This document shows, in pieces, positions 1 to 61,127 of a stretch of DNA of 64,000 bases. Below the pieces are notes generated by a model. That model searched no databases. It saw only the letters and a list, made by a program, of their open reading frames with translations, and was not told the origin of the DNA. The translations under genes and the position numbers were made by a program. The first letter of the stretch is position 1. Each line of letters begins with the position of its first letter. Source of the DNA: Chloroflexota bacterium (GTDB taxonomy: Bacteria > Chloroflexota > UBA11872); the NCBI GenBank assembly GCA_026707585.1, contig JAPOWQ010000049.1, forward strand, positions 25,845 to 89,844, read 5' to 3'.

Positions 1-2292
1 CCTTCGTTCAGCGGCGCGGCGGCGTGCTGCCGAACCGCGGCGTGGGCGGTCAGCACTTCGGCTACCACCGCGCGTAGGGCACCCGTGCCCTTGCCGTGGA
101 TGATGCGCAGGGTCGCGGCGCCCTGACGCAGCGCATCGTCGACGCTGCGTTCCGTCATTTCAGCCGCTTCTTCGGCCCGCATCCCGCGAATATCGATCTC
201 CTGTGTCCCGCCGCCAGTGGCCACGCGGCGCGGACGGCGCTTCGGTCGGGGTGGCGCCTGGACCACGCGCTGAAGCCGAGCGCGGCCGAAGGTGGCGCGA
301 GCGCTGCCGATGGCGACCTCCACGGACTGATCCGTGATTCCCAGCACCACGGCGCGGCCGCTAAACCCATCGGCCTCCACTTCGTCGCCCACACGCACGT
401 CAAGTGGGCCAGGCTCGGCAGGTTCGTCTGGCGGCGGCGACCCAGGGGCCAGCCGTTTTTCCGCTGCGTCGAAGCTTCCACGCGCCGCACGCCGGGCGTC
501 GGGACGACCTGATCGGGCCGCGCGCCTGGCCGCCTGAAGAGCCTGGCGTGCGTCGCGTAGCAGTTCGCGGGCCTCACGCCGTGCGTCACGCAGCAGTGTG
601 TCGCGGTCGCGCTCCAGTTCGTCGATCTGGTCGTCAAGCTCGCGGCGCGATTGTTCGGCGGCGTTGCGCGCCTGCGCGCTGGCCGTGCGTTCGCGCTCCG
701 CGGCCGCTCGTTCGCTTTGCGCGTCGAGGATGGCGCGTTCCAGGTCCAGCGCCCCCTTCGACATTCGCGCGCGAGCGTCGTCGACAATCGTGGCCTCAAG
801 CCCGAGCCGGTCCGCGATATCCAGGGCATTGCTGGATCCCGGAATCCCCAGGCGCAGGCGGTAGGTCGGGCGCAGGGTGGCGTGGTCGAACTCCACGCTG
901 GCGTTCCGGGTCGCCGGATGCGATGCGGCAAATGCCTTGAGCGCCGGGTGATGGGTGGTGGCCACCACGGTTGCGCCTCGCTCCAGCAGCTCGGCAATGA
1001 CCGCCTGGCCCAGGGCGGCGCCTTCGTCCGGGTCGGTGCCCGCGCCGATCTCGTCCGCCAGCGCCAGCGCGCCGGGCCCGGCCGCCTCGACCATGGCTCG
1101 CAGGTTGCGTACGTGCGAGGCAAACGTGCTGAGGCTGTGTTCGATGCTCTGCGCATCCCCGATGTCGGCCACGACACGCTCGAACACGGCCACCCGCGAT
1201 CCCGCTTTGGCGGGGACATGCAGTCCGCAAGCCGCCATCAGGTGCAGCAGGCCTACCGTCTTGAGGGCGACGGTCTTGCCGCCCGTATTGGCGCCCGTGA
1301 TCACCAGCGCCCGGGCCTGCGCGCCGTCCAGATGCACGTTGATGGGCACGGGCTTATCCAGCAGGGGATGCCGCGCGGCTTGCAGGTCGAACGAGGTGTC
1401 GTCGCTTACCGCGGGCGCCACCGCCTTGGTGGCCGTCGCGTAGCGCGCCACCGCCAGGGTCCGATCCAGGTCCGCCAGCGCCTGCACGGCGGCGTTGAGG
1501 GCCAGTCGCTCCGCGCCCACCGCCGCGGAGAGTTCCAGCAGGATGCGCTCGACTTCGCGTCGTTCGGCCACTTCCAGCGAGCGAATCTCGTTGCCCGCTT
1601 CGATAACCGCCAGGGGCTCCATGAAGACCGTGGCTCCGCTGGCCGATACGTCGTGCACCACGCCTGGAAAGTCCCGCTGCCGTTCGCGCCGAACGGGAAC
1701 CGTCAACCGGCCGCGGCGCTCCGTGACCAGGCGTTCCCGCAGGACGTCCGTGGAAACTTGCTGGATCATGCGTTCCAGCAGGCGCGTGAGGCGTCCGCGG
1801 GCGCGCGCCAGCATGCGTCGCAGACGCGTCAACTCCTCGGATGCCGAATCCCGAACCTCAGCGTCCTCATTGATCGCCGCCGCAATCCGACCCTCCAGGT
1901 CCGGCGGATCGCTGGCAGCCTCCACCAGCGACCACAGCGCGGGAACCTCGGCCGCCTGCCTGGCAACCGCAGCCACGGCCAGGCGCGTGGCTCGCAGGTG
2001 ATCGTGGACGTCCAGCAGGTCGGCGGGATCCAGGGATGCGCCCCGCGCGGCTCGTTCGGCCCGGTCGCGCACGTCGCGCGCGCCGCCCACCGTGAACGAT
2101 GGGCTGACGTCAAGAAACTGGCGGCCTTGCGCGGTGAGTTCCAGCCGGGCGCTCACGGTCGCGCGGTCAGCGACCGGACGCAGCGCCAGCACCTCGGCTC
2201 GCGCGGCCGAGAACGAGGCGAATCGGGCGACGCGCTCCAATATCGCTGGCAGTTCCAGCAAGTTGCGCGTCTGGGCGTCGGCGACGGTCATG
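1..2292 (-). CDS. mutS2: Endonuclease MutS2 (MutS domain + C-terminal Smr domain); 3' end runs off the window start
   Basis: Reverse-strand translation gives the Walker A motif 'LVITGANTGGKTVALKTVGL' and a C-terminal Smr motif '...IDIRGMRAEEA...IIHGKGTGALR'. ATG is at ~2292 (RC of 'cat') with an in-frame stop just upstream. The six-frame track misses it because no stop falls inside the window. Confidence 0.85.
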
Positions 2293-2459
2293 TGTGGGTC
2301 AGCGGCCGTCAGCTGATCAGTGGGTTCGGTCACAGCAGCAAACTTAGCCTTACGTCGCCAATCCGCAACGTAAGGGCGCGTCGCCAGGATGCGAGCCTGG
2401 TCAATTCAGAGGGCGAAACTCGTGCGAGAGGCCCCTGCCGTCGAAGCGAGGGTGCGCGT

Positions 2460-2765
2460 CTAGTCGTACAGGCGAAACGGCGGATACCGGTCGGTCACGC
2501 TCAAGAAGTAGGCGTTCACCCGTAGATTCCAGCGAAGGACTCCAACCTGGAAGTCATAAAGGCCGCGCGGGTAGTAGCCAACGATCAGGATTGCAATCCA
2601 GCCAATCAGCGTCGCGAAATAGGCGACAAATCCAAGAACCATCAACACCAGAATGTGCGGAAGTATCAGCAGGATCTTGAAGACGGTGAGCAACCCCGCC
2701 AGCGCCAGCAGGCGCGAGCTTTGCTCGGGGTATTCCGCACTAATATCAACCGGGTAGTCATCCAT
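2460..2765 (-). CDS. DUF4389-like small membrane protein
   Basis: 101 aa with two hydrophobic helices ('LLILPHILVLMVLGFVAYFATLIGWIAILIVGYYPRGLYDF'), typical of the DUF4389 family. Confidence 0.55.
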   Translation of the reverse strand: MDDYPVDISAEYPEQSSRLLALAGLLTVFKILLILPHILVLMVLGFVAYFATLIGWIAILIVGYYPRGLYDFQVGVLRWNLRVNAYFLSVTDRYPPFRLYD

Positions 2766-8161: not shown

Positions 8162-8818
8162 TCAGGTCGTGATGGGTGAGGCCTGCGGCAGCGCGGACTG
8201 TTCCTGGATTGCGTATGTGCAAGCGCAGCCCTCGCGCGGACCCACTTCCAGCGGAGTGACCTCAGCCTCAACGAGCCGTCGAATCAAGCGCAATTCGGAG
8301 TCGCAGCCGGCTCGGCAGGTGGCGGCCACGTCCCAGATCGGACAGTGATGCGCCGATAGCACGTATCCCGTTTCGGTTCGGTCGACACGCGGCATGAAGC
8401 CGCACTCGTCCATGATGCGCCTGAGCTCTTGGACGCGGGCGTGAAAATCCAAGCCCGCCAGGCGCGGCGCAAACCGGTGGTATTGCTTGTCCTCGTGGTG
8501 AGTCAGGATTCGCTTCAGGAGATCGTGCCCGCCGAACGCCAGCACGGCCTCCACGAAGTCTTTCGCAAACTCGCCGTAGCCCTGGGGAAACCTCGCGTGC
8601 CCGGCACTGGTCAGCTCATATTGGTGCCGTGGTCGCCCCGGTCCGCCGCGCACCGCCTGCACGCGCACCAGTCCCTCGGCCACCAGCCGGTCGAGGTGGG
8701 GTCGGACGGCCGACAGGCTGCTGCCAATAACTTCGGCAATCGCCCGAACCTGAAGCGCCCCTTGCATTTTCAGGGCGTGCAGGATCTGTTCGCGGGGATT
8801 CGCGGATTGCTCGGACAT
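8162..8818 (-). CDS. SufR/DeoR-like winged-helix transcriptional regulator with a Cys-rich C-terminal sensor domain
   Basis: N-terminal HTH ('REQILHALKMQGALQVRAIAEVIGSSLSAVRPHLDRLVAEGLV') and a C-terminal cluster of Cys ('HHCPIWDVAATCRAGC...REGCAC'). It lies directly upstream of iscS and the A-type carrier. Confidence 0.65.
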   Translation of the reverse strand: MSEQSANPREQILHALKMQGALQVRAIAEVIGSSLSAVRPHLDRLVAEGLVRVQAVRGGPGRPRHQYELTSAGHARFPQGYGEFAKDFVEAVLAFGGHDLLKRILTHHEDKQYHRFAPRLAGLDFHARVQELRRIMDECGFMPRVDRTETGYVLSAHHCPIWDVAATCRAGCDSELRLIRRLVEAEVTPLEVGPREGCACTYAIQEQSALPQASPITT

Positions 8819-19426: not shown

Positions 19427-19507
19427 GCCGGGGTGGCGGAACGGTAGACGCACGGGACTTAAAATCCCGGGACTTCGGTCGTATGGGTTCGAATCCCATC
19501 CCCGGTA
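19427..19507 (+). tRNA. tRNA-Leu (anticodon UAA), type II with long variable arm
   Basis: Acceptor stem 'gccgggg/ccccggu' (G1.U72). Anticodon stem-loop 'cggga-cuUAAaa-ucccg'. T-arm 'augggTTCGAAUcccau'. Discriminator A, with no encoded CCA. Confidence 0.75.
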
Positions 19508-28025: not shown

Positions 28026-28670
28026 CTAGGCATCATCAGCATCTGCCGGGACCAGCGGCAGATTCGTTCGCTCAATTTCGGTTTGCTCGCGTCGGCGCCG
28101 CGACTCATTAATGGTGTCCAGCATTTCCTGGACGCCACCCTCGCCAAAGTAGCCCGACGCGTAACGTACGTAGGTGACCTCGTCGAGGGTGACCAAGCGC
28201 TCCATGACCAAGCCGGCGATGTGCTTCGATGGTACGTCTAGGGTGTCACGACCGAGCAGCTCGTTCTCGATTTCGATGGCGGCCTCGTCTGCCCAGTTGC
28301 TGGAGACTGGGCGCTTCGTCCCGGCGATCATGATCGAGCGATAGAGCTTGCCGCGGTTGAAGGGCTCGCTTCGACCGTCGTCCTTGATCACGCGGATGTC
28401 CATACGCGCCAAACGCTCCAGCGTCTGATAGCCCAGCCCGCAATCAGCGCAGCGGCGGCGGCGGCGCATGGTTCCCTGCGATGTTAATTCCCACGTCTCC
28501 ACTCGCGCTTCGTCGTGTCCACAGTGCGGGCACGTGTAGATTTCACGACGCTCGTAGGTCGTAAAACGACGGCCGCATTCCAGGCAGGCGCGGCGGCGGC
28601 GGGTGGCATCGGCGGCCTCACGCGTGTCTACTACCTGCAATCGTCCTGACGAGCAAGATGGACACCGCAT
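28026..28670 (-). CDS. nrdR: Transcriptional repressor NrdR with a tandemly duplicated N-terminal zinc ribbon and C-terminal extension
   Basis: First ribbon 'MRCPSCSS...RRRRACLECGRRFTTYER'. Second ribbon 'YTCPHCGHD...RRRRRCADCGLGYQTLE'. ATP-cone 'RVIKDDGRSEPFNRGKLYRSIMIAGTKRPVS...'. Confidence 0.8.
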   Translation of the reverse strand: MRCPSCSSGRLQVVDTREAADATRRRRACLECGRRFTTYERREIYTCPHCGHDEARVETWELTSQGTMRRRRRCADCGLGYQTLERLARMDIRVIKDDGRSEPFNRGKLYRSIMIAGTKRPVSSNWADEAAIEIENELLGRDTLDVPSKHIAGLVMERLVTLDEVTYVRYASGYFGEGGVQEMLDTINESRRRREQTEIERTNLPLVPADADDA

Positions 28671-30065: not shown

Positions 30066-30875
30066 ATGCGACGGCCCCGACTGGTCACGCCCCCGCCGTT
30101 TCGCGAAACCGGCTACGACCCGGCCGCGCAGGTCTACGACCTGGAGTACCCGGAGTGCGATGGAGCGGAGTTGGACTTCTGGATCACCGAGGGGCGCCGC
30201 TTCGGGCCGCGGCTGCTGGAATTCGCCGTCGGCACCGGCCGCATGGCGGTTCCTCTGGCCAGGCAGGGTTTCCAGATCACCGGCGTGGATACCTCAGCCG
30301 CCATGCTGAAGCGGGCCGCGGCACGCCGCGCCGCATCAGGGCGGTCAACCAGCGCGCGTCTCGGGCTGCAACGCGGCGACATGCGTACGTGCCGGCTGAC
30401 GGACGTCTATGACCTGGCGCTGGTGGGCTTCAACTCATATCTGTTGCTGCCGGATCAATCGGCTCGCCAGCTGACCCTGGAGAACGCCGCCGCCCACGTG
30501 CGGCCGGGCGGGGCCGTGGCCGTGGACGTGTTCTCGGCCACGCCGCTTGACGCCACGCCGGACCACGAGGAGGTCGAGTTTCTGGAACGCGACCCCTCGA
30601 CCGGCCGGCGCATAACCCGCGAGCGTTTCTACACGTACGACGAGGCCACGCATCGCGGTTGTAGCACTCTCATCTACCGCTACTACGACGGCCCGTTGTT
30701 GGTCGACGAGCGTCGGCTGGGTTACAGCCTGGCGCTGGTGACGCGTGACGACGTGGTGGCGGAGTTCGTGGCGGCCGGGTTGCAGATTGACGCGGTGTAC
30801 GGCGATTACACGCGCCGGCCGTGGCGCGACGACTCGCCGAACTTGATCGTCATCGGTCGCACCGCCACTCGTTGA
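30066..30875 (+). CDS. Class I SAM-dependent methyltransferase
   Basis: Motif I 'LLEFAVGTGRMAVPLARQGFQITGVDTSAAML'. Confidence 0.7.
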   Translation: MRRPRLVTPPPFRETGYDPAAQVYDLEYPECDGAELDFWITEGRRFGPRLLEFAVGTGRMAVPLARQGFQITGVDTSAAMLKRAAARRAASGRSTSARLGLQRGDMRTCRLTDVYDLALVGFNSYLLLPDQSARQLTLENAAAHVRPGGAVAVDVFSATPLDATPDHEEVEFLERDPSTGRRITRERFYTYDEATHRGCSTLIYRYYDGPLLVDERRLGYSLALVTRDDVVAEFVAAGLQIDAVYGDYTRRPWRDDSPNLIVIGRTATR

Positions 30876-30924
30876 CACAGGGCGGGCGCGCTCTTCACAA
30901 TCGCACCCAAGCCAGCCGGGCCGT

Positions 30925-31251
30925 TTGGGCCCACGACAAGAAACCCGTATGACCAGCAAGCCCCGTCGGCACATCCGCGTATCCGAGTTCCGGTTTCAGA
31001 TTCCCCGCCGTAGCGGCGAGGGATCCTTTCCGGTGCCGCGCCACCAGCTCGCCTGGACCGACGCCTTCATTGACGAGGAAACCGGCGATCGCTACGAACT
31101 GGCCTATGTGCTTGAGCACTTGGAAACCCAGGGCTGGGACGTGCACGATCTGCTGAAGGGGCGTGGGACGTTCCGTGAGACCGTGGAACGACTTCCGCTC
31201 CCGTACGGCGGTCAGTTTGCGCCCGGAGACCCCACCACCCGCGACGCATAG
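30925..31251 (+). CDS. Hypothetical protein
   Basis: Non-repetitive ORF with plausible codon usage sitting between the methyltransferase and oxidoreductase genes. No family recognised. Confidence 0.35.
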   Translation: MGPRQETRMTSKPRRHIRVSEFRFQIPRRSGEGSFPVPRHQLAWTDAFIDEETGDRYELAYVLEHLETQGWDVHDLLKGRGTFRETVERLPLPYGGQFAPGDPTTRDA

Positions 31252-31313: not shown

Positions 31314-32318
31314 ATGTCCATGCCATACCGACTAGGCGCCATTGGCGTTGGCGGCAACTCCGCCGGCCACCTGCGGCGATTCCTCGCGATGCCAGAGGTT
31401 GACGTGGTTGGTATGGCAGATCCGTCTGACACGTCAATCGCGAACGCGCGGGCAAATGTTGAAGGCCTGGACGAAGTTCCAGCATACGCCGACTGGCGGG
31501 ACCTCCTGGCCGCGACCGATCTGGAGCTAGCGCTGGTCTCCACCCCGCACACCCTTCACCACGAGCATGTCATGGGCGCCCTGGACGCCGGCTTACACGT
31601 GCTCTGCGAGAAGCCGCTCGCCCACACCCCCGAACTGGCCCAAGAGATCGCCGATCACGCCAAGGCTCTAGGCCAACACGTCGTGGTTGGCTTCCAGCGT
31701 CGATTCAGCCCCGGCTACACCTATATGCGCGATCGACTGCAGAGCAGCGACATGGGCGACATCACCCACGTCCAAGCCAGCCAGTGGCAGGCCTGGATCG
31801 GCGCCGCCCGAGGCAAGTGGCGAAGCACGCTGGCCCTGGGCGGCGGCGGTCAGTTGAGCGACTCCGGCAGCCACCTCATGGACATGCTGCTTTGGACTAC
31901 CGGCTTGCGCATCGTCGAAGTGGACGCGCGTATGCGTACCTACGACCTGGAAGTTGAAGTTGACGGCGCGGCCGTTTTGCTCTTCGAGAACGGCGCCATC
32001 GGCACGTTGTCCATCATTGGTACCGGTCACACGTTCGGCGAGCGCCTGGCGGTGGTTGCCGGCGGCGGCGCCATCCGCGCGGACTGGGCCTCAGGCGGCG
32101 TGGAAGTGATCCTGGAAGACGACCTCGAGGCCAAGGTCACGCGTGAAGTGGAAGGACTCGCAGGCGGAAGCAATCCCGACGAACACTTCCTGGAGGTCAT
32201 CAACGGCACTGCCCCCAACGGCTCACCGCCCGAAGACAGCGTGCACCTGCTGGAGGTATTGGCGGCGATCCGGCAGTCCTCGGTTTCCGGGCAACGCGAA
32301 GTGGTAAACCGGACCTAG
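31314..32318 (+). CDS. Gfo/Idh/MocA family oxidoreductase
   Basis: N-terminal Rossmann 'LGAIGVGGNSAGHLRRF...VVGMADP' and 'EKPLAHTPELAQEI'. Confidence 0.8.
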   Translation: MSMPYRLGAIGVGGNSAGHLRRFLAMPEVDVVGMADPSDTSIANARANVEGLDEVPAYADWRDLLAATDLELALVSTPHTLHHEHVMGALDAGLHVLCEKPLAHTPELAQEIADHAKALGQHVVVGFQRRFSPGYTYMRDRLQSSDMGDITHVQASQWQAWIGAARGKWRSTLALGGGGQLSDSGSHLMDMLLWTTGLRIVEVDARMRTYDLEVEVDGAAVLLFENGAIGTLSIIGTGHTFGERLAVVAGGGAIRADWASGGVEVILEDDLEAKVTREVEGLAGGSNPDEHFLEVINGTAPNGSPPEDSVHLLEVLAAIRQSSVSGQREVVNRT

Positions 32319-32323
32319 TCCCA

Positions 32324-34525
32324 ATGGGCAGCGGTCTGCCCGCTCGCTGGCGCCGCGCAGCCCGGCTTGCCGGCGCTCTGCTCTGCGGCGGCCTGCTCCT
32401 CGGTGGCTCGCCGACGCCAGATATCGCGGTTCATCTCGATCAACCTTCGACGGGATTCGCGCAGTCGCTGGATTTCAGGCTGGGCACCAACGAAATCGTC
32501 GATCTCTACCGAGACGGCGGCATCGACCGAGCCGCCCAGTTCGGAGCCGATCTCGTACGCGTGTGGGTGGGGCATCGCTTTCTGGGAGCGGCGGCGGGCA
32601 GTTCACCCGCCGAGTTTGAATGGAGCCGGCTGCATGCCTTCGTGCAGCGAGTCCTCGACGCGGGCGCGACGCCGATGGTGAGCTTTGTCGCCGCGCCGGC
32701 ATGGGTGACTGCCGCTGACGGCACCCCAAGTTCGCAGCACGAGAGCGAACGCTTCAACACCGCCGGCGTCAGGGGGTATGCCGAGTACGTGGCGGACGCC
32801 ATTGAGCGATTGCGTGATCACTTCGGTCCGGTTGCGTTGAGCTGGCCGTACACCATCTGGAACGAGCCGAACAATCACCAGAACGCCGGTCAGCACTACG
32901 CCTGCGGCAGCGGCGCAGCGTATGCGGAACTCTATGCTGCGGCCCGTGCCGCCGTGGCCACGCGCTTCGGCTCCGGGGTGGTGGCTATGGGGGGACCCTC
33001 GCTCGACGCAATCGACACCGGTACCACGCTCAATCCGGACGGTAGCCGGACCTGCGGGAATGTGCCGGACGTGGACTGGGCAACCTACCTGCGCTCCGTG
33101 GACTCAGCGTCGTTCCACGACTTCCTGACGTGGCACTGGTACGGGATGCATCGCGTGGGTGAGACAACCTCGGCCGAGGTCCTTCGCACGCGTCTCTCGT
33201 GGTTTGAAACCCGCGTGCGCCTGATTTCAGGAATTGCCGCCGGACGGCCGCACTATGTGGAAGAAATTAACTTTAACGGCGATCTCGCGGTCGATCCCTT
33301 GGTTCAGGCGCCGATAAACGGCGCGTTTCTGGCCTCCGCCACCCTGCGCGCCGTGCGCCAGGGCGCCAGCGGGCTGCTGGTATACAAGGGAACGCGCGAC
33401 CCATCGGGCAAATCGCCTCGCGGTGAACCGGACTTTGGCCTGTGGTCCAGCGCGATTGCCGACCCGCCAGCGCCGGCATTTGGGGTGATGCAGTTGGTGC
33501 GTCGGTTTGTTGCGGGTTCGGGACGACTCACGCGGGTGGACGTCCGCGGACCGGACCTTGACGCGCTTGTCGTGGACACCGATCAAGGACCGCGCACGGC
33601 CGTCGTGAATCTATCGCCAAGCCACCGAACTGTGCGCGTGTCCGGGCTGCCGGCAGCGCCGGCAGCCGCCGTTAGCGGTGAGACGGCCTGGACGCCTGGC
33701 TGGTTCGACGGGACGTCCATCGTCGTTCCAGGCTTTGGATTGGCTGTGATTGACGGCTCGCTGGGCGGGCTACCTGCGCTTCCGACTGTCGAGCGCGGAC
33801 GCCGGACGTATGACACGCAGTGTTCGTCTTGTCACGGCGTCACACCCTCGGGTGCGCATGCGCCGGGACTGGCCGGCGCTCCTCGAGCCGCGGTTGACGG
33901 CTCGCACGCCGCAGGCCGTCTCACGAACGGCGAGCGGATCAATCTGACTGGCTTCTTGTCGGGCTGGCGAATCGCTGGCCGCGTGGTCACTGGCATCGTG
34001 CAGGACGCGAATGGGACGCCGATCTCGGGTGCCCTGGTGATTGCCGCCGGCTTCGACTCCGGCACCGCAGCGTGGACTGATGCCGCGGGGCATTTTCAAT
34101 TGCGCACCTCCGATCCGCTGGCGAGTGTCGCCGCGACCCCGCGACGGCTCATGGCTCTCCACGCCGACCATGCAGTTGCCCACGCGCCGATCAGCCTTGG
34201 GGCGATTCCATCCGGGCCCACGGTGACATTCGCGCTGCACGCGCCACCGACGGGCCAGCGACCTGCCCTAGCATCCAGTTATGTGGTCGATACAGGCAAC
34301 GGCATCTATCGGCTGGGCACGGCAAGCGCGGGCGCCTCGGAGATATGGGCCGTGGCGGCGGGCGGAGGTCTCGCTCGCCGACTTGCGCCGGAGCCGGAGT
34401 CCGCATTCGGTGTTCGGATGACGCACCTGGCGGCCGCAGACGCATCGACCGCAGCGGGCAACTGGGTTGTGGCCGCTATCGGCTCAAATGGCGCGGTGGC
34501 GCTGCGACGCGTGGCCATCGACTGA
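32324..34525 (+). CDS. Secreted multidomain protein: clan GH-A glycoside hydrolase (GH39/GH5-like, 'WNEPN') + CxxCH haem-c-like segment + CarbopepD_reg-like beta-sandwich
   Basis: Signal peptide, then 'YTIWNEPNNHQ', then 'YDTQCSSCHGVTPSG', then 'GRVVTGIVQDANGTPISGALVIAAGFDSGTAAWTDAAGHFQL'. Confidence 0.6.
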   Translation: MGSGLPARWRRAARLAGALLCGGLLLGGSPTPDIAVHLDQPSTGFAQSLDFRLGTNEIVDLYRDGGIDRAAQFGADLVRVWVGHRFLGAAAGSSPAEFEWSRLHAFVQRVLDAGATPMVSFVAAPAWVTAADGTPSSQHESERFNTAGVRGYAEYVADAIERLRDHFGPVALSWPYTIWNEPNNHQNAGQHYACGSGAAYAELYAAARAAVATRFGSGVVAMGGPSLDAIDTGTTLNPDGSRTCGNVPDVDWATYLRSVDSASFHDFLTWHWYGMHRVGETTSAEVLRTRLSWFETRVRLISGIAAGRPHYVEEINFNGDLAVDPLVQAPINGAFLASATLRAVRQGASGLLVYKGTRDPSGKSPRGEPDFGLWSSAIADPPAPAFGVMQLVRRFVAGSGRLTRVDVRGPDLDALVVDTDQGPRTAVVNLSPSHRTVRVSGLPAAPAAAVSGETAWTPGWFDGTSIVVPGFGLAVIDGSLGGLPALPTVERGRRTYDTQCSSCHGVTPSGAHAPGLAGAPRAAVDGSHAAGRLTNGERINLTGFLSGWRIAGRVVTGIVQDANGTPISGALVIAAGFDSGTAAWTDAAGHFQLRTSDPLASVAATPRRLMALHADHAVAHAPISLGAIPSGPTVTFALHAPPTGQRPALASSYVVDTGNGIYRLGTASAGASEIWAVAAGGGLARRLAPEPESAFGVRMTHLAAADASTAAGNWVVAAIGSNGAVALRRVAID

Positions 34526-58323: not shown

Positions 58324-58662
58324 CTACGGTCGCTGGGTCTCGGTCCGCTCCGCAAGCTCGCGCAGCATCTCCCACGGATAGATACCCGTGCTGTGACTAT
58401 CGCTCCAGTCGAAGGTGAGCGCGTAGTTCCCAACCGGCGCGATCCGGTAGGCGCGAATGTCGGTCGGAATCGTGGCCGGATCCAGCAGCGGCGCGCCGGT
58501 CAGTTCGTCGCGGCAGACGGCGCAGCCGCAGGCCAGCCGAATCTCCCGCAGCGGAATCACGGAAGCTGATCCGTCGGCCCAGTCAATGCCGAGCGCATCG
58601 TCCCCTTCACGACGGATATCCACCGCAGTGACCCGCGCCGGCACGCCTGATTGGGCGCTCAC
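58324..58662 (-). CDS. DUF971 family protein
   Basis: '[14 protein letters not shown]...[21 protein letters not shown]', matching the gamma-butyrobetaine hydroxylase-like N-terminal fold. Confidence 0.65.
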
Positions 58663-61127
58663 TGGGCGGCGCTGGCGACCAAGTGCTCGATTTCGTCGGC
58701 GAGCGACGCCGCCGCCACCGGGCCCTCACCCTCCGCCATCACGCGGAACACCGGCCGGTCGTCGTCAGGCACCACGACTGCGCGATCGGAGCCTTCCCCA
58801 AATACGACCCCATCAATTTCGCCCTCGTCGCTGCGGTCGGGATGGGAGTTGAGGACGCGCATGAGCTGCGCGCGCCGCTCCCAGGCCACCGAAACCTCGC
58901 GGTGCGCCAGCGTAAAGGCTGGCAACGAACCGACCCGCGCCGACACCGACAAATCACTCAACGCCTGCGCGCTGATCAGATGCACCAGGGTTGCCATGGC
59001 GTCAGGACCTGGATGCAGATTCGGAAACGCCAGCGCATTTCGGCCGTTCGCCGCCACCACCGCCCGTTGGCCGTCACTCACTTGCATCATGTTGGCGACG
59101 TTGGCCTGGGTGCGGATTGACGTAAAGCCCAACTCGCTGGCATAGGACGTGAGGCTATTTGGCACCGTGAATGGCACGGCCAGCGGACCGGAGATTCCTC
59201 GCGCCCTCAGCCCGTCCAGGACCAGCGCAATGACGGTCAGGCTGTCGATCGGCGCTCCTTGCTCGTCCACCAGCCAGATGCGATTTCCGTCCGGACCCAC
59301 CACGGCGCCAAACGTGGCGCCCACGGCGGTAACGATTCGTCCCAATCGGGCCAACCGTTCCTCGATCGCCATTCCGCCGGAGCCAACGTCAACCGGCGAG
59401 GCATCCACGGCGGTGTCGCGCACGCCCAGGCGGGTCAGCACGCTGAGCAGCGTCTCGCCGCAGGTTCCGTCGCTGTAGTCCACCACCACGCCGACATGTC
59501 GGTGCGTTACCTCTGAGTTGGCCACCACGCGCAGCAGTGCTTCCTGATATGCCTCGACGGCGGCCGCCACGGTGATCTCCGCAATCGACTCAGAGCCCAC
59601 GCGCCGAAAGTCCTCGCGCATGAACGTGGCTTCAATCTTTCGCTGTTCGGTTGGCCGGATGTCCACGCCGCGTGGGTTCGTGAAGCGCACGTCCACAGCC
59701 GCCGCGTCGTACGGCGAGGTACGCACGTGGGTCGTGCCCTCTGCCTCAAACCGTGCGCACGCAAAGCGACCGACCGGAAACGGCGTAGCGCCGATGTCGA
59801 TCACGCGCACGCCGACCGAGGCGAGACCTGCCATCAAGGCTCGCTTGACCATGCGAGCCGGCCGTGTCTGGTCTCGGTTCGCCACGACAGACGCGCCAAC
59901 CGGCAGCGTGCTTCCCCAGGCGGCGCCCAGGCGTGCCGCGAACTCGGGCGTGAGTTCGAAATTTGCCAGCCCGGCCACGCCGCCGTGCGTGAAGATCGTC
60001 CGCCGAGCCTGCGGCGCATGGATCAGGCTCCGGTCCACGACCACGCCCTCGTCTACGAACTTGCGCGGCCAGATGCGCACGCCGGGTCGAACCGATGACC
60101 CATCCGCCAGCGTGCTGCGGTCACCGATCACCACGTCTTCGCGAATGGTCACGCCGCGCCCGAGGTTGGCGTGCCGCGCCACGATGCACTGCGCCAGGCT
60201 GGCGCCGACCCCAACCACGACGTTTCCGCTGATCACGGCTTCGCTGATCTCGGCACGTTCGGCGATCAGGGTGTTGTCGCCGATCGCCGCGGGCCCGTTT
60301 ATCACGGCGTGCGCGTGAACCTCGCTTCCTCGTCCCACGTACACCGGCCCCCGCATTTGCACCGTGGGATCGACCCGAGCCGTCGAATCCACCGTCGGAC
60401 CGTCTGGTCGATAGGTGGGGCCGTCATACGTACGCACCCCTCCTGATACGAGGTCGGCGTTCGCGGCCCGGTAGGCGTCAAGCGTGCCGATATCCGTCCA
60501 ATACCCGTCCGCGATGTGCCCGTAGAGAGGTCGCCCGCCGGCCAGCATGGCCGGGAAGACGTCCATGGAGAAGTCGACTTGCCGTCCCGGCGGAATCAAG
60601 TCGAACACGGCTGGATCCAGCATGTAGATGCCCGTGTTGGCGGCGTCGCTCAACACCTCGCCCCAGGACGGCTTCTCCTGAAAGCGGAGTATTCGACCGT
60701 CGTCCGCGGTCACCACCACGCCGTATTCCAGCGGATTGGGAACCCGGGCCAGAAGTAGCGTGGCTTCGGAGTCACAGGCCTCGTGCGCGGTTGCCAGGGC
60801 CGTCAGGTCTACGTCGGTCAGCGCGTCGCCGGAGATCACCAGAAACGGCTCGGTCAACTGATCGCGGGCCAGCGCCACACTGCCAGCGGTGCCCAATGGC
60901 TCGTTCTCGTAGGTGTACGTGATTCGCAGCCCGAAGTCTTCGCCCGACTGGAAGTAATTCTCGATCGTGGAGCCAAGGTAGTGCAGCGTCACGATCACGT
61001 CGGTGAAGCCGTGCGCGCGCAGCAGCCGCAGGATGTGTTCCATGACGGGTGCGTCGCCCAGCATGGCCATTGGCTTGGGGCGCTCAATGGTCAGCGGCCG
61101 CAGCCGGGAGCCTTCGCCGCCGGCCAT
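58659..61127 (-). CDS. Bifunctional sugar-1-phosphate nucleotidyltransferase (mannose-1-P guanylyltransferase-like, with left-handed beta-helix) / phosphomannomutase-phosphoglucomutase
   Basis: The N-terminus '[20 protein letters not shown]' is an NTP-transferase. The C-terminal half carries all four PGM/PMM domains. 822 aa. Its stop overlaps the DUF971 start. Confidence 0.8.

What the first reader, a model, noticed from the sequence alone, without database searches (positions are those of the whole stretch)
32324..34525. Secreted glycoside hydrolase fused to a single-haem CxxCH segment and a CarbopepD_reg-like domain
The N-terminal ~420 aa look like a clan GH-A retaining glycosidase ('WNEPN' acid/base strand, GH39/GH5-like). 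The protein then continues into 'TYDTQCSSCHGVTPSGAHAPG', a canonical haem-c attachment motif. After that comes a beta-sandwich segment matching carboxypeptidase-regulatory-like domains ('GIVQDANGTPISGALV...TDAAGHFQL') and ~130 aa with no recognisable family. Covalent haem on an extracellular carbohydrate-active enzyme is unusual, resembling the planctomycete-type cytochrome C fusions. It hints at a redox-assisted or electron-shuttling polysaccharide-degrading function.
Basis: partly seen in the sequence, partly recalled or inferred. Interest (0 to 1): 0.5.

Follow-up and report, generated by a model that had tools for sequence, protein, structure and literature searches.

The report
GH39-like glycosidase with haem-c domain
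A group of marine and sponge-associated Chloroflexota bacteria all carry an exported sugar-cleaving enzyme with a tiny, unusual cytochrome c domain built in; this pairing is rare, has never been studied, and its purpose is unknown.

Summary
ORF 32324-34525 (+) encodes a 733-aa protein with these modules:
- an N-terminal export signal or anchor;
- a roughly 60-residue shortened class I cytochrome c domain (487-546);
- a CarboxypepD_reg-like beta-sandwich and a second, unclassified beta-sandwich.

The same architecture is kept in about 50 protein clusters and 21 species-level genomes, all Chloroflexota, at one syntenic position in a housekeeping region.

C500, C503, H504 and H528 are invariant in 38 of 40 aligned members. 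The segment has no conserved Met. The one sub-lineage that deleted the haem motif also changed H528 to Gln, while every catalytic residue stayed intact. This points to a His/His haem that hydrolysis does not need.

Not supported are the Met ligand it expected, the planctomycete-type resemblance, and the redox-assisted polysaccharide degradation. There is no polysaccharide-utilisation locus, LPMO or redox partner nearby.

Precedent is thin: the CjX183 cytochrome domain of Cbp2D, and one uncharacterised [GH9][X183] protein. I class this as a new variant of a known kind, of moderate interest.

The parts
32324..34525 (+). Whole ORF, 733 aa: signal/anchor, GH39-like hydrolase, mini cytochrome c, and two beta-sandwiches
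   Evidence: The same architecture is found in about 50 protein clusters at 44-100% identity.
32324..32413 (+). Residues 1-30: basic n-region (R8, R10, R11, R14) plus a roughly 14-residue hydrophobic stretch. This is a Sec-type signal peptide or an N-terminal membrane anchor.
   Evidence: The feature is conserved across the family. AF2 predicts helix 7-25 followed by a low-confidence tether. No twin-arginine motif or lipobox is conserved. The cleavage site was not predicted with a dedicated tool.
32423..33508 (+). Residues 34-395: (beta/alpha)8 barrel of a GH39-like, clan GH-A retaining glycosidase
32861..32869 (+). N180-E181-P182: predicted acid/base glutamate E181 after strand beta4
   Evidence: Invariant. 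It aligns with WNEPN of XynB (1px8). Coordinates verified.
33263..33265 (+). E314: predicted nucleophile at the end of strand beta7 (V-E-E-I-N)
   Evidence: E313 and E314 are invariant. The strand is predicted at 310-316. By eye the motif corresponds to 'LNEWN' in the Clostridia GH39 relatives. The choice of E314 over E313 is inferred.
33134..33142 (+). H271-W272-Y273: the His-x-Tyr motif on strand beta6 that is typical of clan GH-A
   Evidence: Invariant. It lies inside DFLTWHWYG, which is shared with GH39 relatives.
33521..33754 (+). Residues 400-477: beta-sandwich packed on the barrel, the GH39-type accessory domain
33782..33961 (+). Residues 487-546: shortened class I cytochrome c domain (helices 487-499, 521-531 and 535-546)
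   Evidence: Block pLDDT 74-92. A profile of this segment alone matches 277 PDB cytochrome c chains; the best is 44.6 bits. The class I spacing G492-x3-Y496-x3-C500 and L545 in the C-terminal helix are conserved. dN/dS 0.14-0.48.
33821..33835 (+). C500-S-S-C503-H504: haem c attachment motif with the proximal His
   Evidence: Invariant in 38 of 38 motif-bearing members. Covalent attachment is inferred, not shown.
33905..33907 (+). H528 (motif D-x-S-H-A-A): proposed distal haem ligand, occupying the usual Met slot
   Evidence: Invariant in 38 of 38, and changed to Gln only in the two CxxCH-less members. It sits just before the helix that follows the Met loop in QcrC and CcoP.
33977..34243 (+). 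Residues 552-640: CarboxypepD_reg-like (transthyretin-like) beta-sandwich
34271..34516 (+). Residues 650-731: second beta-sandwich with no assignable family
   Evidence: pLDDT 84-93. Only generic Ig-like matches. No Pfam or NCBIfam hit.

Best explanation
The gene encodes an exported, multi-domain enzyme that defines a family confined to one Chloroflexota lineage. It is either anchored by its N-terminus or released after signal cleavage.

Hydrolase module. Residues 34-477 are a divergent GH39-like retaining glycosidase. It should cleave a glycosidic bond in an extracytoplasmic glycan by the standard double-displacement mechanism, with E181 as acid/base and E314 as nucleophile. The substrate is unknown. 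This chemistry does not need the haem.

Cytochrome module. Residues 487-546 are a cut-down class I cytochrome c. It most likely carries one covalently bound haem on C500 and C503, ligated by H504 and H528. That would make it a His/His haem, probably of lower potential than His/Met cytochromes.

Stalk. Two beta-sandwich domains follow and probably act as a spacer or binding stalk.

Proposed role of the haem. I consider the haem domain a real, selected accessory redox module. The role I commit to is a tethered one-electron relay next to the hydrolase, comparable to the CjX183 cytochrome domain of Cbp2D, rather than a participant in hydrolysis.

What is shown: the architecture, its conservation, the catalytic signature, and the link between H528 and the haem motif.

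What is inferred: haem attachment, His/His ligation, the low potential, the relay role, and the substrate class.
For: Hydrolase:
- Pfam GH39 above cut-off in the window protein, and matched by 39 of 40 members.
- Invariant R79, N180-E181, H271-x-Y273, E313/E314 and W374.
- dN/dS about 0.09.

Export:
- A basic-plus-hydrophobic N-terminus is conserved across the family.
- The family has only four core cysteines. Two (C194, C244) lie in the barrel and are invariant, consistent with a disulfide.

Cytochrome:
- Pfam Cytochrom_C above cut-off.
- The segment profile matches dozens of solved class I cytochromes in two ordered pieces: helix 1 plus CxxCH, then the C-terminal helix.
- The class I hallmark G-x3-aromatic-x3-C-x2-C-H and L545 are conserved.
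- The segment is predicted as a confident compact helical fold.
- C500, C503, H504 and H528 are invariant in 38 of 38 members, although the domain is only 38% identical between clades.
- Of 153 highly conserved columns, only H504, G505, H528 and two Gly/Ala swaps differ in the two haem-less members.

Real fusion, not an artefact:
- Found in 21 species-level genomes, including complete chromosomes, always at the same syntenic position.

Precedent for a relay role:
- CjX183 reduces LPMOs (PMC8981238).
- Extra cytochrome c domains fused to enzymes recur in Chloroflexi (PMC8756737).
Against: - No haem, activity or localisation data exist for any member.
- No cytochrome c maturation gene, other c-type cytochrome, LPMO or oxidoreductase with an export signal is present in the 64-kb window or in the syntenic blocks. 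A relay therefore has no identified donor or acceptor.
- A hydrolase needs no electrons.
- The cytochrome segment evolves 2-5 times faster than the barrel.
- One sub-lineage lost the haem site with no other change. The haem is therefore dispensable, which fits a structural or vestigial role equally well.
- The co-loss of CxxCH and H528 is a single evolutionary event: the two sequences are 79% identical to each other.
Confidence: 0.5

Rival explanations
1. Structural or vestigial haem. The mini-cytochrome is only a rigid spacer between the hydrolase and the beta-sandwich stalk. Its haem serves as the hydrophobic core of a domain too small to fold without it, and there is no electron transfer of physiological relevance.
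For: - dN/dS of 0.14-0.48 is in the same range as the two C-terminal beta-domains (0.13-0.33) and far above the barrel.
- Conservation is concentrated on the four haem-binding residues plus the helix-packing residues G492 and L545.
- The haem site was lost in P0032 and P0033 with every catalytic residue intact.
- No redox partner is present in any syntenic block.
Against: - Making a c-type haem only as a structural core is costly. In the cases I read, cytochrome c domains fused to enzymes are interpreted as electron carriers (PMC8981238, PMC8756737).
- All four haem residues are invariant across the full divergence of the family.
- A spacer could be replaced by another beta-sandwich, yet this has been seen only once.
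Confidence: 0.28
2. Redox or ligand sensor. A hexacoordinate His/His haem senses oxygen or redox state outside the membrane and modulates the attached hydrolase, or binding by the stalk domains. Oxygen fluctuates in sponge tissue, which would give such a sensor something to detect.
For: - Indirect only. c-type haem sensor domains exist in bacteria (established knowledge).
- AF2 gives a high pTM (0.88), suggesting fixed inter-domain packing through which a signal could pass.
- Many members come from sponge-derived genome bins.
Against: - There is no PAS, GAF or other signalling fold; the domain is class I cytochrome-like.
- There is no output domain other than the hydrolase.
- The family also occurs in non-sponge marine samples, including Tara and a UBA genome bin.
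Confidence: 0.1
3. The enzyme belongs to an oxidative-plus-hydrolytic system for degrading external polysaccharides. The cytochrome would feed electrons to an LPMO-like or other oxidative partner, by analogy with the cellobiose dehydrogenase cytochrome domain or Cbp2D.
For: - CjX183 activates LPMOs in vitro (PMC8981238).
- A [GH9][X183] fusion is listed in that paper's supplement.
- Sponge Chloroflexi are described as degraders of dissolved organic matter and carbohydrates (PMC6306507).
Against: - The gene is single-copy at a fixed position among housekeeping genes: aspartate kinase, the arg operon, NrdR, sugar-nucleotide and glycosyltransferase genes, and BacA.
- There is no transporter, regulator, CBM, second glycoside hydrolase or LPMO nearby.
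- The strongly conserved active site (61% identity between clades, against 28-38% for the accessory domains) fits one fixed, possibly endogenous substrate, as with PslG, better than a varied diet.
Confidence: 0.08
4. The CxxCH does not bind haem. It would be a metal site or a redox-active dithiol in a degenerate cytochrome-derived helix bundle.
For: - The Pfam match covers only 35 of 90 profile positions.
- Only 24 residues separate H504 from H528, which is much shorter than in typical class I cytochromes.
- The maturation machinery could not be shown.
Against: - The N-terminal helix signature and C-terminal helix of class I cytochromes are both retained.
- The His of CxxCH is as invariant as the two Cys residues, and a second His co-varies with the motif. 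That pattern is expected for haem ligation, not for a dithiol.
Confidence: 0.04

Closest known systems
GH39 beta-xylosidases (XynB; PDB 1w91, 1px8, 6uqj)
   Different: Only 14-17% identity. From established knowledge, those enzymes are cytoplasmic and have no export signal. They have no cytochrome and no C-terminal stalk. This family has its own invariant insertions (SSQHESE 136-142) and a Cys194/Cys244 pair.
PslG of Pseudomonas aeruginosa (GH39, PDB 4zn2)
   Different: PslG has no cytochrome or stalk domains. The structural similarity is no better than to other clan GH-A families. The gene here is not inside a dedicated exopolysaccharide operon, and its orientation flips between clades.
CjX183 c-type cytochrome domain of Cellvibrio japonicus Cbp2D (PMC8981238)
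   Same: A small single-haem class I cytochrome c domain embedded in a secreted multi-modular protein linked to carbohydrate turnover. It is shown to donate electrons to LPMOs.
   Different: CjX183 has His/Met ligation and a disulfide. It is attached to CBM2, X158, FN3 and X132 modules, not to a hydrolase, and comes from Gammaproteobacteria. It is not among the 60 best PDB matches listed for the cytochrome segment. No direct comparison was possible.
[GH9][X183] protein AJQ95003.1 of Gynuella sunshinyii (listed in PMC8981238, suppl. S1)
   Same: The only glycoside hydrolase fused to a c-type cytochrome domain that my GH-prefix searches of that list returned.
   Different: Different hydrolase family (GH9, an inverting (alpha/alpha)6 fold, from established knowledge). 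Different cytochrome type and different phylum. Also uncharacterised.
Cellobiose dehydrogenase (AA3_1 flavin domain plus AA8 cytochrome domain)
   Same: A tethered mobile cytochrome domain on a secreted carbohydrate-active enzyme that shuttles electrons to LPMOs (established knowledge; PMC12485664 appeared).
   Different: It has haem b, not haem c. The catalytic partner is itself an oxidoreductase that supplies the electrons, whereas a hydrolase supplies none. It is fungal.
Extra cytochrome c domains fused to enzymes in Chloroflexi (C1-C2-NirS; PMC8756737)
   Same: Same phylum. Short, divergent class I cytochrome c domains fused in-frame to an enzyme, with weak Pfam PF13442 matches.
   Different: There the fusion partner is a redox enzyme with an obvious need for electrons.

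Membership tests
Glycoside hydrolase family 39 / clan GH-A | (beta/alpha)8 barrel followed by a beta-sandwich domain | tested here: met
Glycoside hydrolase family 39 / clan GH-A | Acid/base Glu in an N-E-P motif after strand beta4 | tested here: met
   N180-E181-P182 is invariant and aligns with WNEPN of XynB 1px8.
Glycoside hydrolase family 39 / clan GH-A | Nucleophile Glu at the end of strand beta7, plus His-x-Tyr on beta6 | tested here: met
   E313/E314 are invariant on predicted strand 310-316, and H271-x-Y273 is invariant. Which of the two Glu residues is the nucleophile is inferred (E314).
Glycoside hydrolase family 39 / clan GH-A | Sequence-level family membership (Pfam gathering score; CAZy/dbCAN assignment) | tested here: inconclusive
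   Pfam gives 30.9 bits against a cut-off of 26, and 39 of 40 members match. But identity to any GH39 is only 14-21%, and the GH5 model also scores 21.3 bits. dbCAN/CAZy was not available. This could be a distant GH39 subfamily or a sister family.
Glycoside hydrolase family 39 / clan GH-A | Measured glycosidase activity with retention of configuration | not testable with these tools
   No biochemical data exist for any member.
Class I cytochrome c | CxxCH near the N-terminus, preceded by a helix with G-x3-aromatic-x3-C spacing | tested here: met
   G492 in 38/38, Y or F at 496 in 37/38, and C500, C503 and H504 in 38/38. Pfam Cytochrom_C 23.6 bits, above 21.3.
Class I cytochrome c | N- and C-terminal helices that pack together around the haem | tested here: met
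   Predicted helices 487-499 and 535-546 at pLDDT 85-92. The C-terminal 'L-t-x-x-E-x-x-D-l-a-x-F-L' helix aligns with the corresponding helix of QcrC and CcoP. L545 is present in 37/38. Packing could not be checked because no coordinates were available.
Class I cytochrome c | Met as sixth ligand, 35-60 residues after the CxxCH | tested here: not met
   No Met is conserved anywhere in 481-553. H528, 24 residues after H504, is the only conserved candidate. This is therefore a shortened variant, probably His/His.
Class I cytochrome c | Covalently bound haem, with a maturation system (System I or II) in the genome | not testable with these tools
   No WWD-motif protein and no other CxxCH protein is present in the 64-kb window. 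The rest of the genome could not be read.
CarboxypepD_reg-like domain (PF13620) | Seven-stranded transthyretin-like beta-sandwich that matches the Pfam model | tested here: met
Planctomycete-type cytochrome C domains (PSCyt) | Match to the PSCyt Pfam models, and association with PSD/DUF1549/DUF1553 modules | tested here: not met
   No PSCyt family was reported at E <= 10 or among the families matched by the 40 members. No such partner modules are present.
X183 cytochrome modules (CjX183 type) | His/Met haem, C-terminal disulfide, and association with CBM2, X158 and X132 | tested here: not met
   There is no Met ligand and no extra Cys pair; the family has only four core Cys residues. None of those partner modules is present. 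Direct sequence comparison was not possible.

The most novel reading that the evidence does not exclude
The haem is functionally coupled to glycan processing. In this reading, a low-potential His/His cytochrome c tethered to a cell-surface glycosidase connects the respiratory chain or oxygen to an extracytoplasmic carbohydrate reaction in Chloroflexota. It might reduce an oxidative partner, generate peroxide locally, or gate hydrolysis by redox state. This would be the first glycoside hydrolase whose biological function depends on a built-in c-type haem.
Probability: 0.15. Interest if true: 0.75.

Novelty: new variant of a known kind. Interest (0 to 1): 0.45.

Why it matters
Glycoside hydrolases are not redox enzymes. 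A c-type haem domain kept inside one across a whole bacterial lineage therefore needs an explanation.

If the haem is active, it would extend the idea of tethered electron carriers in carbohydrate turnover. So far that idea rests on fungal cellobiose dehydrogenase and on one bacterial cytochrome domain. It would extend it to hydrolases and to Chloroflexota, a phylum abundant in sponges and the deep ocean with few cultured members.

The domain is also a very small class I-type cytochrome, with only 24 residues between the two proposed haem ligands and His in place of Met. That makes it a compact test case for minimal haem-c folds.

If the haem proves only structural, the finding reduces to a lineage-specific decoration on an otherwise ordinary GH39-like enzyme.

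Tried and rejected
- **Fold search of the C-terminal half against AFDB.** The library was not installed.
- **Profile of the C-terminal module against 1.84 billion representatives.** The listed results were swamped by CarboxypepD_reg repeat proteins and multihaem cytochromes. Only one end-to-end match appeared, from the same family, so no reuse of the module with other enzymes was found.
- **Second word-index search with the family profile.** It gave no more-distant members.
- **Looking for haem-c maturation genes or other cytochromes in the window.** None were found.
- **NCBIfam naming of the neighbouring genes.** Nothing reached a curated cut-off.
- **Gfo/Idh/MocA neighbour as a functional partner.** Rejected as obligatory. 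It has no export signal, and it is absent from the distant clade, where the gene is also inverted.
- **Lipoprotein or Tat export.** Rejected. C21 and the RR pair are not conserved.
- **Assembly artefact or gene-fusion error.** Rejected because of conservation in 21 genomes.
- **Literature search for GH39 together with CXXCH.** No papers.
Full report
**1. The observation**

Its codon-position GC pattern matches real genes in this 66% GC window. All quoted peptide strings are present at residues 179-183, 495-515, 557-572 and 585-593.

- Glyco_hydro_39, residues 98-338, 30.9 bits (cut-off 26).
- Cytochrom_C, residues 489-521, 23.6 bits (cut-off 21.3), covering only the first 35 of 90 profile positions.
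- CarboxypepD_reg, residues 555-597, 26.4 bits (cut-off 32.3).

About 0.001 CxxCH motifs are expected by chance in this protein. It is the only CxxCH in the 54 called genes of the window.

**2. A closed, lineage-specific family**

- A search of 5.8 billion proteins returned 50 clusters, nearly all 715-764 aa, at 44-100% identity and covering the whole query.
- The named members are "hypothetical protein" from Chloroflexota genome bins. One JGI record calls its member a "mono/diheme cytochrome c family protein".
- Repeating the search with the family profile added nothing more distant. There is a sharp gap between the family members (456 bits and above) and nothing at all down to E = 1e-5.
- In one genome per species, the full-length gene occurs in 21 species, all Chloroflexota. 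Many are sponge-derived bins, and several are complete 3.1-3.8 Mb chromosomes.
- The only other hits were cytoplasmic GH39 proteins of gut Clostridia. They have about 21% identity over the barrel and share the W-N-E-P and DFL(S/T)WHWYG motifs.

**3. Anatomy**

An AlphaFold2 model built on 40 family sequences is confident (pLDDT 85.6, pTM 0.88). It shows:

| Residues | Feature |
|---|---|
| 7-25 | Helix, followed by a low-confidence tether |
| 34-395 | (beta/alpha)8 barrel |
| 400-477 | Beta-sandwich |
| 487-546 | Compact three-helix unit, block pLDDT 74-92 |
| 552-640 | Beta-sandwich |
| 650-731 | Second beta-sandwich |

- The last domain gives only generic Ig-like matches.

**4. The hydrolase looks catalytically competent**

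- The clan GH-A signature is invariant across the family: R79, N180-E181, H271-x-Y273, E313/E314 and W374.
- E181 aligns with the acid/base Glu of XynB.
- The barrel is under strong purifying selection. dN/dS is about 0.09, and identity is 61% even between the most distant clades.
- Two invariant cysteines in the barrel (C194, C244) are consistent with a disulfide, which fits an extracytoplasmic location. This is an inference.

**5. Export**

Full-length members start with a basic stretch followed by 14-17 hydrophobic residues. Neither a twin-arginine motif nor a lipobox cysteine is conserved. I infer Sec export, which haem-c maturation requires (established knowledge). Whether the N-terminus is cleaved or stays as an anchor was not determined.

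**6. The cytochrome segment**

A profile of residues 481-553 alone (alignment A4) matches 277 PDB chains. The best are all class I cytochromes c: CcoP, actinobacterial QcrC, c552, c4 and mitochondrial cytochrome c. The top score is 44.6 bits, and a single-domain protein matches at E = 5e-5.

The match comes in two ordered pieces:
- the N-terminal helix plus CxxCH;
- more weakly, the C-terminal "L-t-x-x-E-x-x-D-l-a-x-F-L" helix, which in QcrC and CcoP follows the Met-ligand loop.

The classical class I residues are conserved:
- G492 in 38/38
- Y or F at 496 in 37/38
- C500, C503 and H504 in 38/38
- L545 in 37/38

What is missing is the Met. No Met is conserved anywhere in the segment. The only other conserved potential ligand is H528, in the motif D-x-S-H-A-A, 24 residues after H504.

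Two family members (P0032 and P0033, 79% identical to each other) have an 18-residue deletion that removes the His of the motif. Of 153 columns that are at least 97% conserved in the other 38 sequences, only five differ in both:
- H504 and G505, deleted
- H528, changed to Gln
- two Gly/Ala swaps

This links H528 specifically to the haem site. It also shows that the hydrolase signature persists without the haem. It is one evolutionary event, so the evidence is suggestive rather than statistical.

dN/dS in the segment is 0.14-0.48. That means it is constrained, but 2-5 times more loosely than the barrel, and in the same range as the C-terminal beta-domains (0.13-0.33).

**7. Genomic context**

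The window is core housekeeping genome:
- ClpB-like ATPase
- sigma-70
- NadA
- PFK
- FtsY
- GyrB
- H+-pyrophosphatase
- the arg operon
- aspartate kinase
- NrdR

The gene always lies between the BFN nuclease/aspartate kinase pair and a block made of a small ORF, a methyltransferase and an NTP-transferase. There are two arrangements:
- **Window clade (at least 50% identity).** The gene follows a cytoplasmic Gfo/Idh/MocA gene by 5 bp, and GT4 and GT2 glycosyltransferases lie downstream.
- **Distant clade (45-47% identity).** The gene is inverted in place, and the Gfo/Idh/MocA and GT4 genes are absent.

So there is no obligatory operon partner, no polysaccharide-utilisation locus, and no redox gene. 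No maturation gene or other c-type cytochrome lies in the window. The rest of the genome could not be examined.

**8. Interpretation**

Well supported:
- an exported, catalytically competent GH39-like retaining glycosidase;
- a cytochrome-c-derived domain whose haem-binding residues are under selection.

Inferred:
- covalent haem, His/His ligation, and hence a potential lower than His/Met cytochromes (established knowledge about ligation and potential);
- a role for the haem.

Among possible roles I rank them as follows:
- a tethered electron relay, about 0.35 on its own;
- a purely structural or vestigial haem, about 0.28;
- a sensor, about 0.1.

The evidence cannot separate the first two, because conservation of the haem ligands is expected under both.

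The substrate is unknown. The fixed single-copy position, the vertical inheritance and the tightly conserved active site lean towards one fixed substrate. That substrate may be the cell's own envelope or exopolysaccharide, as for PslG, rather than a varied external diet. This is weak, context-only evidence.

**9. Comparison with what is known**

- The closest functional precedent is CjX183, the c-type cytochrome domain of the CBM2 protein Cbp2D, which reduces LPMOs in vitro (PMC8981238).
- My searches of that paper's module list for GH family names returned a single hydrolase fusion, [GH9][X183] in Gynuella sunshinyii, which is uncharacterised.
- Extra cytochrome c domains fused to enzymes are documented in Chloroflexi, but the partners there are redox enzymes (PMC8756737).
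- No paper in the library combines GH39 with CXXCH.
- The planctomycete PSCyt families did not match.
- The complete C-terminal module (cytochrome plus two sandwiches) has no end-to-end match outside this family among the best-scoring hits from 1.84 billion representatives.

**10. Verdict**

It is a new variant of known kinds: a divergent GH39-like enzyme with an unusual shortened, probably His/His, haem-c accessory domain. It is conserved across a Chloroflexota lineage and is uncharacterised. The functional claim of redox-assisted polysaccharide degradation is not supported by the context. Interest is moderate, at 0.45.

Noticed in passing
window 30925-31251 (+); also L001 10287-10589 (-), L003 10278-10580 (-), L004 6599-6901 (+): A small ORF of about 100 aa with no Pfam or NCBIfam family lies next to the hydrolase-cytochrome gene in every genome examined. 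It is either directly adjacent or separated only by the Gfo/Idh/MocA gene. It is 54-95% identical across clades and appears cytoplasmic. A sigma-70-like promoter match (10 of 12 positions) lies just upstream at 30872-30901.
   Followed up: partly
window 31314-34525 compared with L001, L003 and L017-L022: Between clades the hydrolase-cytochrome gene is inverted in place relative to its unchanged flanking genes. The Gfo/Idh/MocA and GT4 genes are present only in the window's clade, and an endonuclease V gene only in the other clade.
   Followed up: yes
P0032 and P0033 (3.2-3.3 kb metagenome contigs): Two family members have an 18-residue deletion that removes the His of CxxCH, and they have changed H528 to Gln. 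All catalytic residues are kept. This is a natural haem-less variant that could serve as a control in experiments.
   Followed up: yes
L041 3091-5080: In one 3.6-Mb contig at about 10x coverage, the gene is broken inside the barrel into ORFs of 286 and 359 aa at the same syntenic position. This is probably a sequencing frameshift or a pseudogene, not a split at a domain boundary.
   Followed up: partly
window 28026-28670 (-): The NrdR homologue is long (214 aa). Its ATP-cone starts at residue 92, and Pfam reports two zinc-ribbon stretches, so the N-terminal zinc ribbon may be duplicated. Lengths of 191-232 aa in related genomes suggest this is a trait of the lineage.
   Followed up: no
window 58659-61127 (-): An 822-aa ORF fuses a sugar-1-phosphate nucleotidyltransferase (with a hexapeptide-repeat domain) to a phosphoglucomutase/phosphomannomutase. 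The two would catalyse consecutive steps of sugar-nucleotide synthesis.
   Followed up: no
window 651-2525 (+) and 8162-8818 (-): Two ORFs with good coding statistics (624 aa and 218 aa) have no Pfam family at E <= 1e-5.
   Followed up: no
L027-L040 (for example L030 9737-11089 and L038 4972-6297): Gut Clostridia carry a cytoplasmic GH39 subfamily of about 445 aa that shares the unusual DFL(S/T)WHWYG motif with the Chloroflexota family. These are the nearest detectable relatives of the barrel.
   Followed up: partly
window 19427-19507 (+): A single tRNA gene is the only Rfam match in the window at gathering threshold.
   Followed up: no
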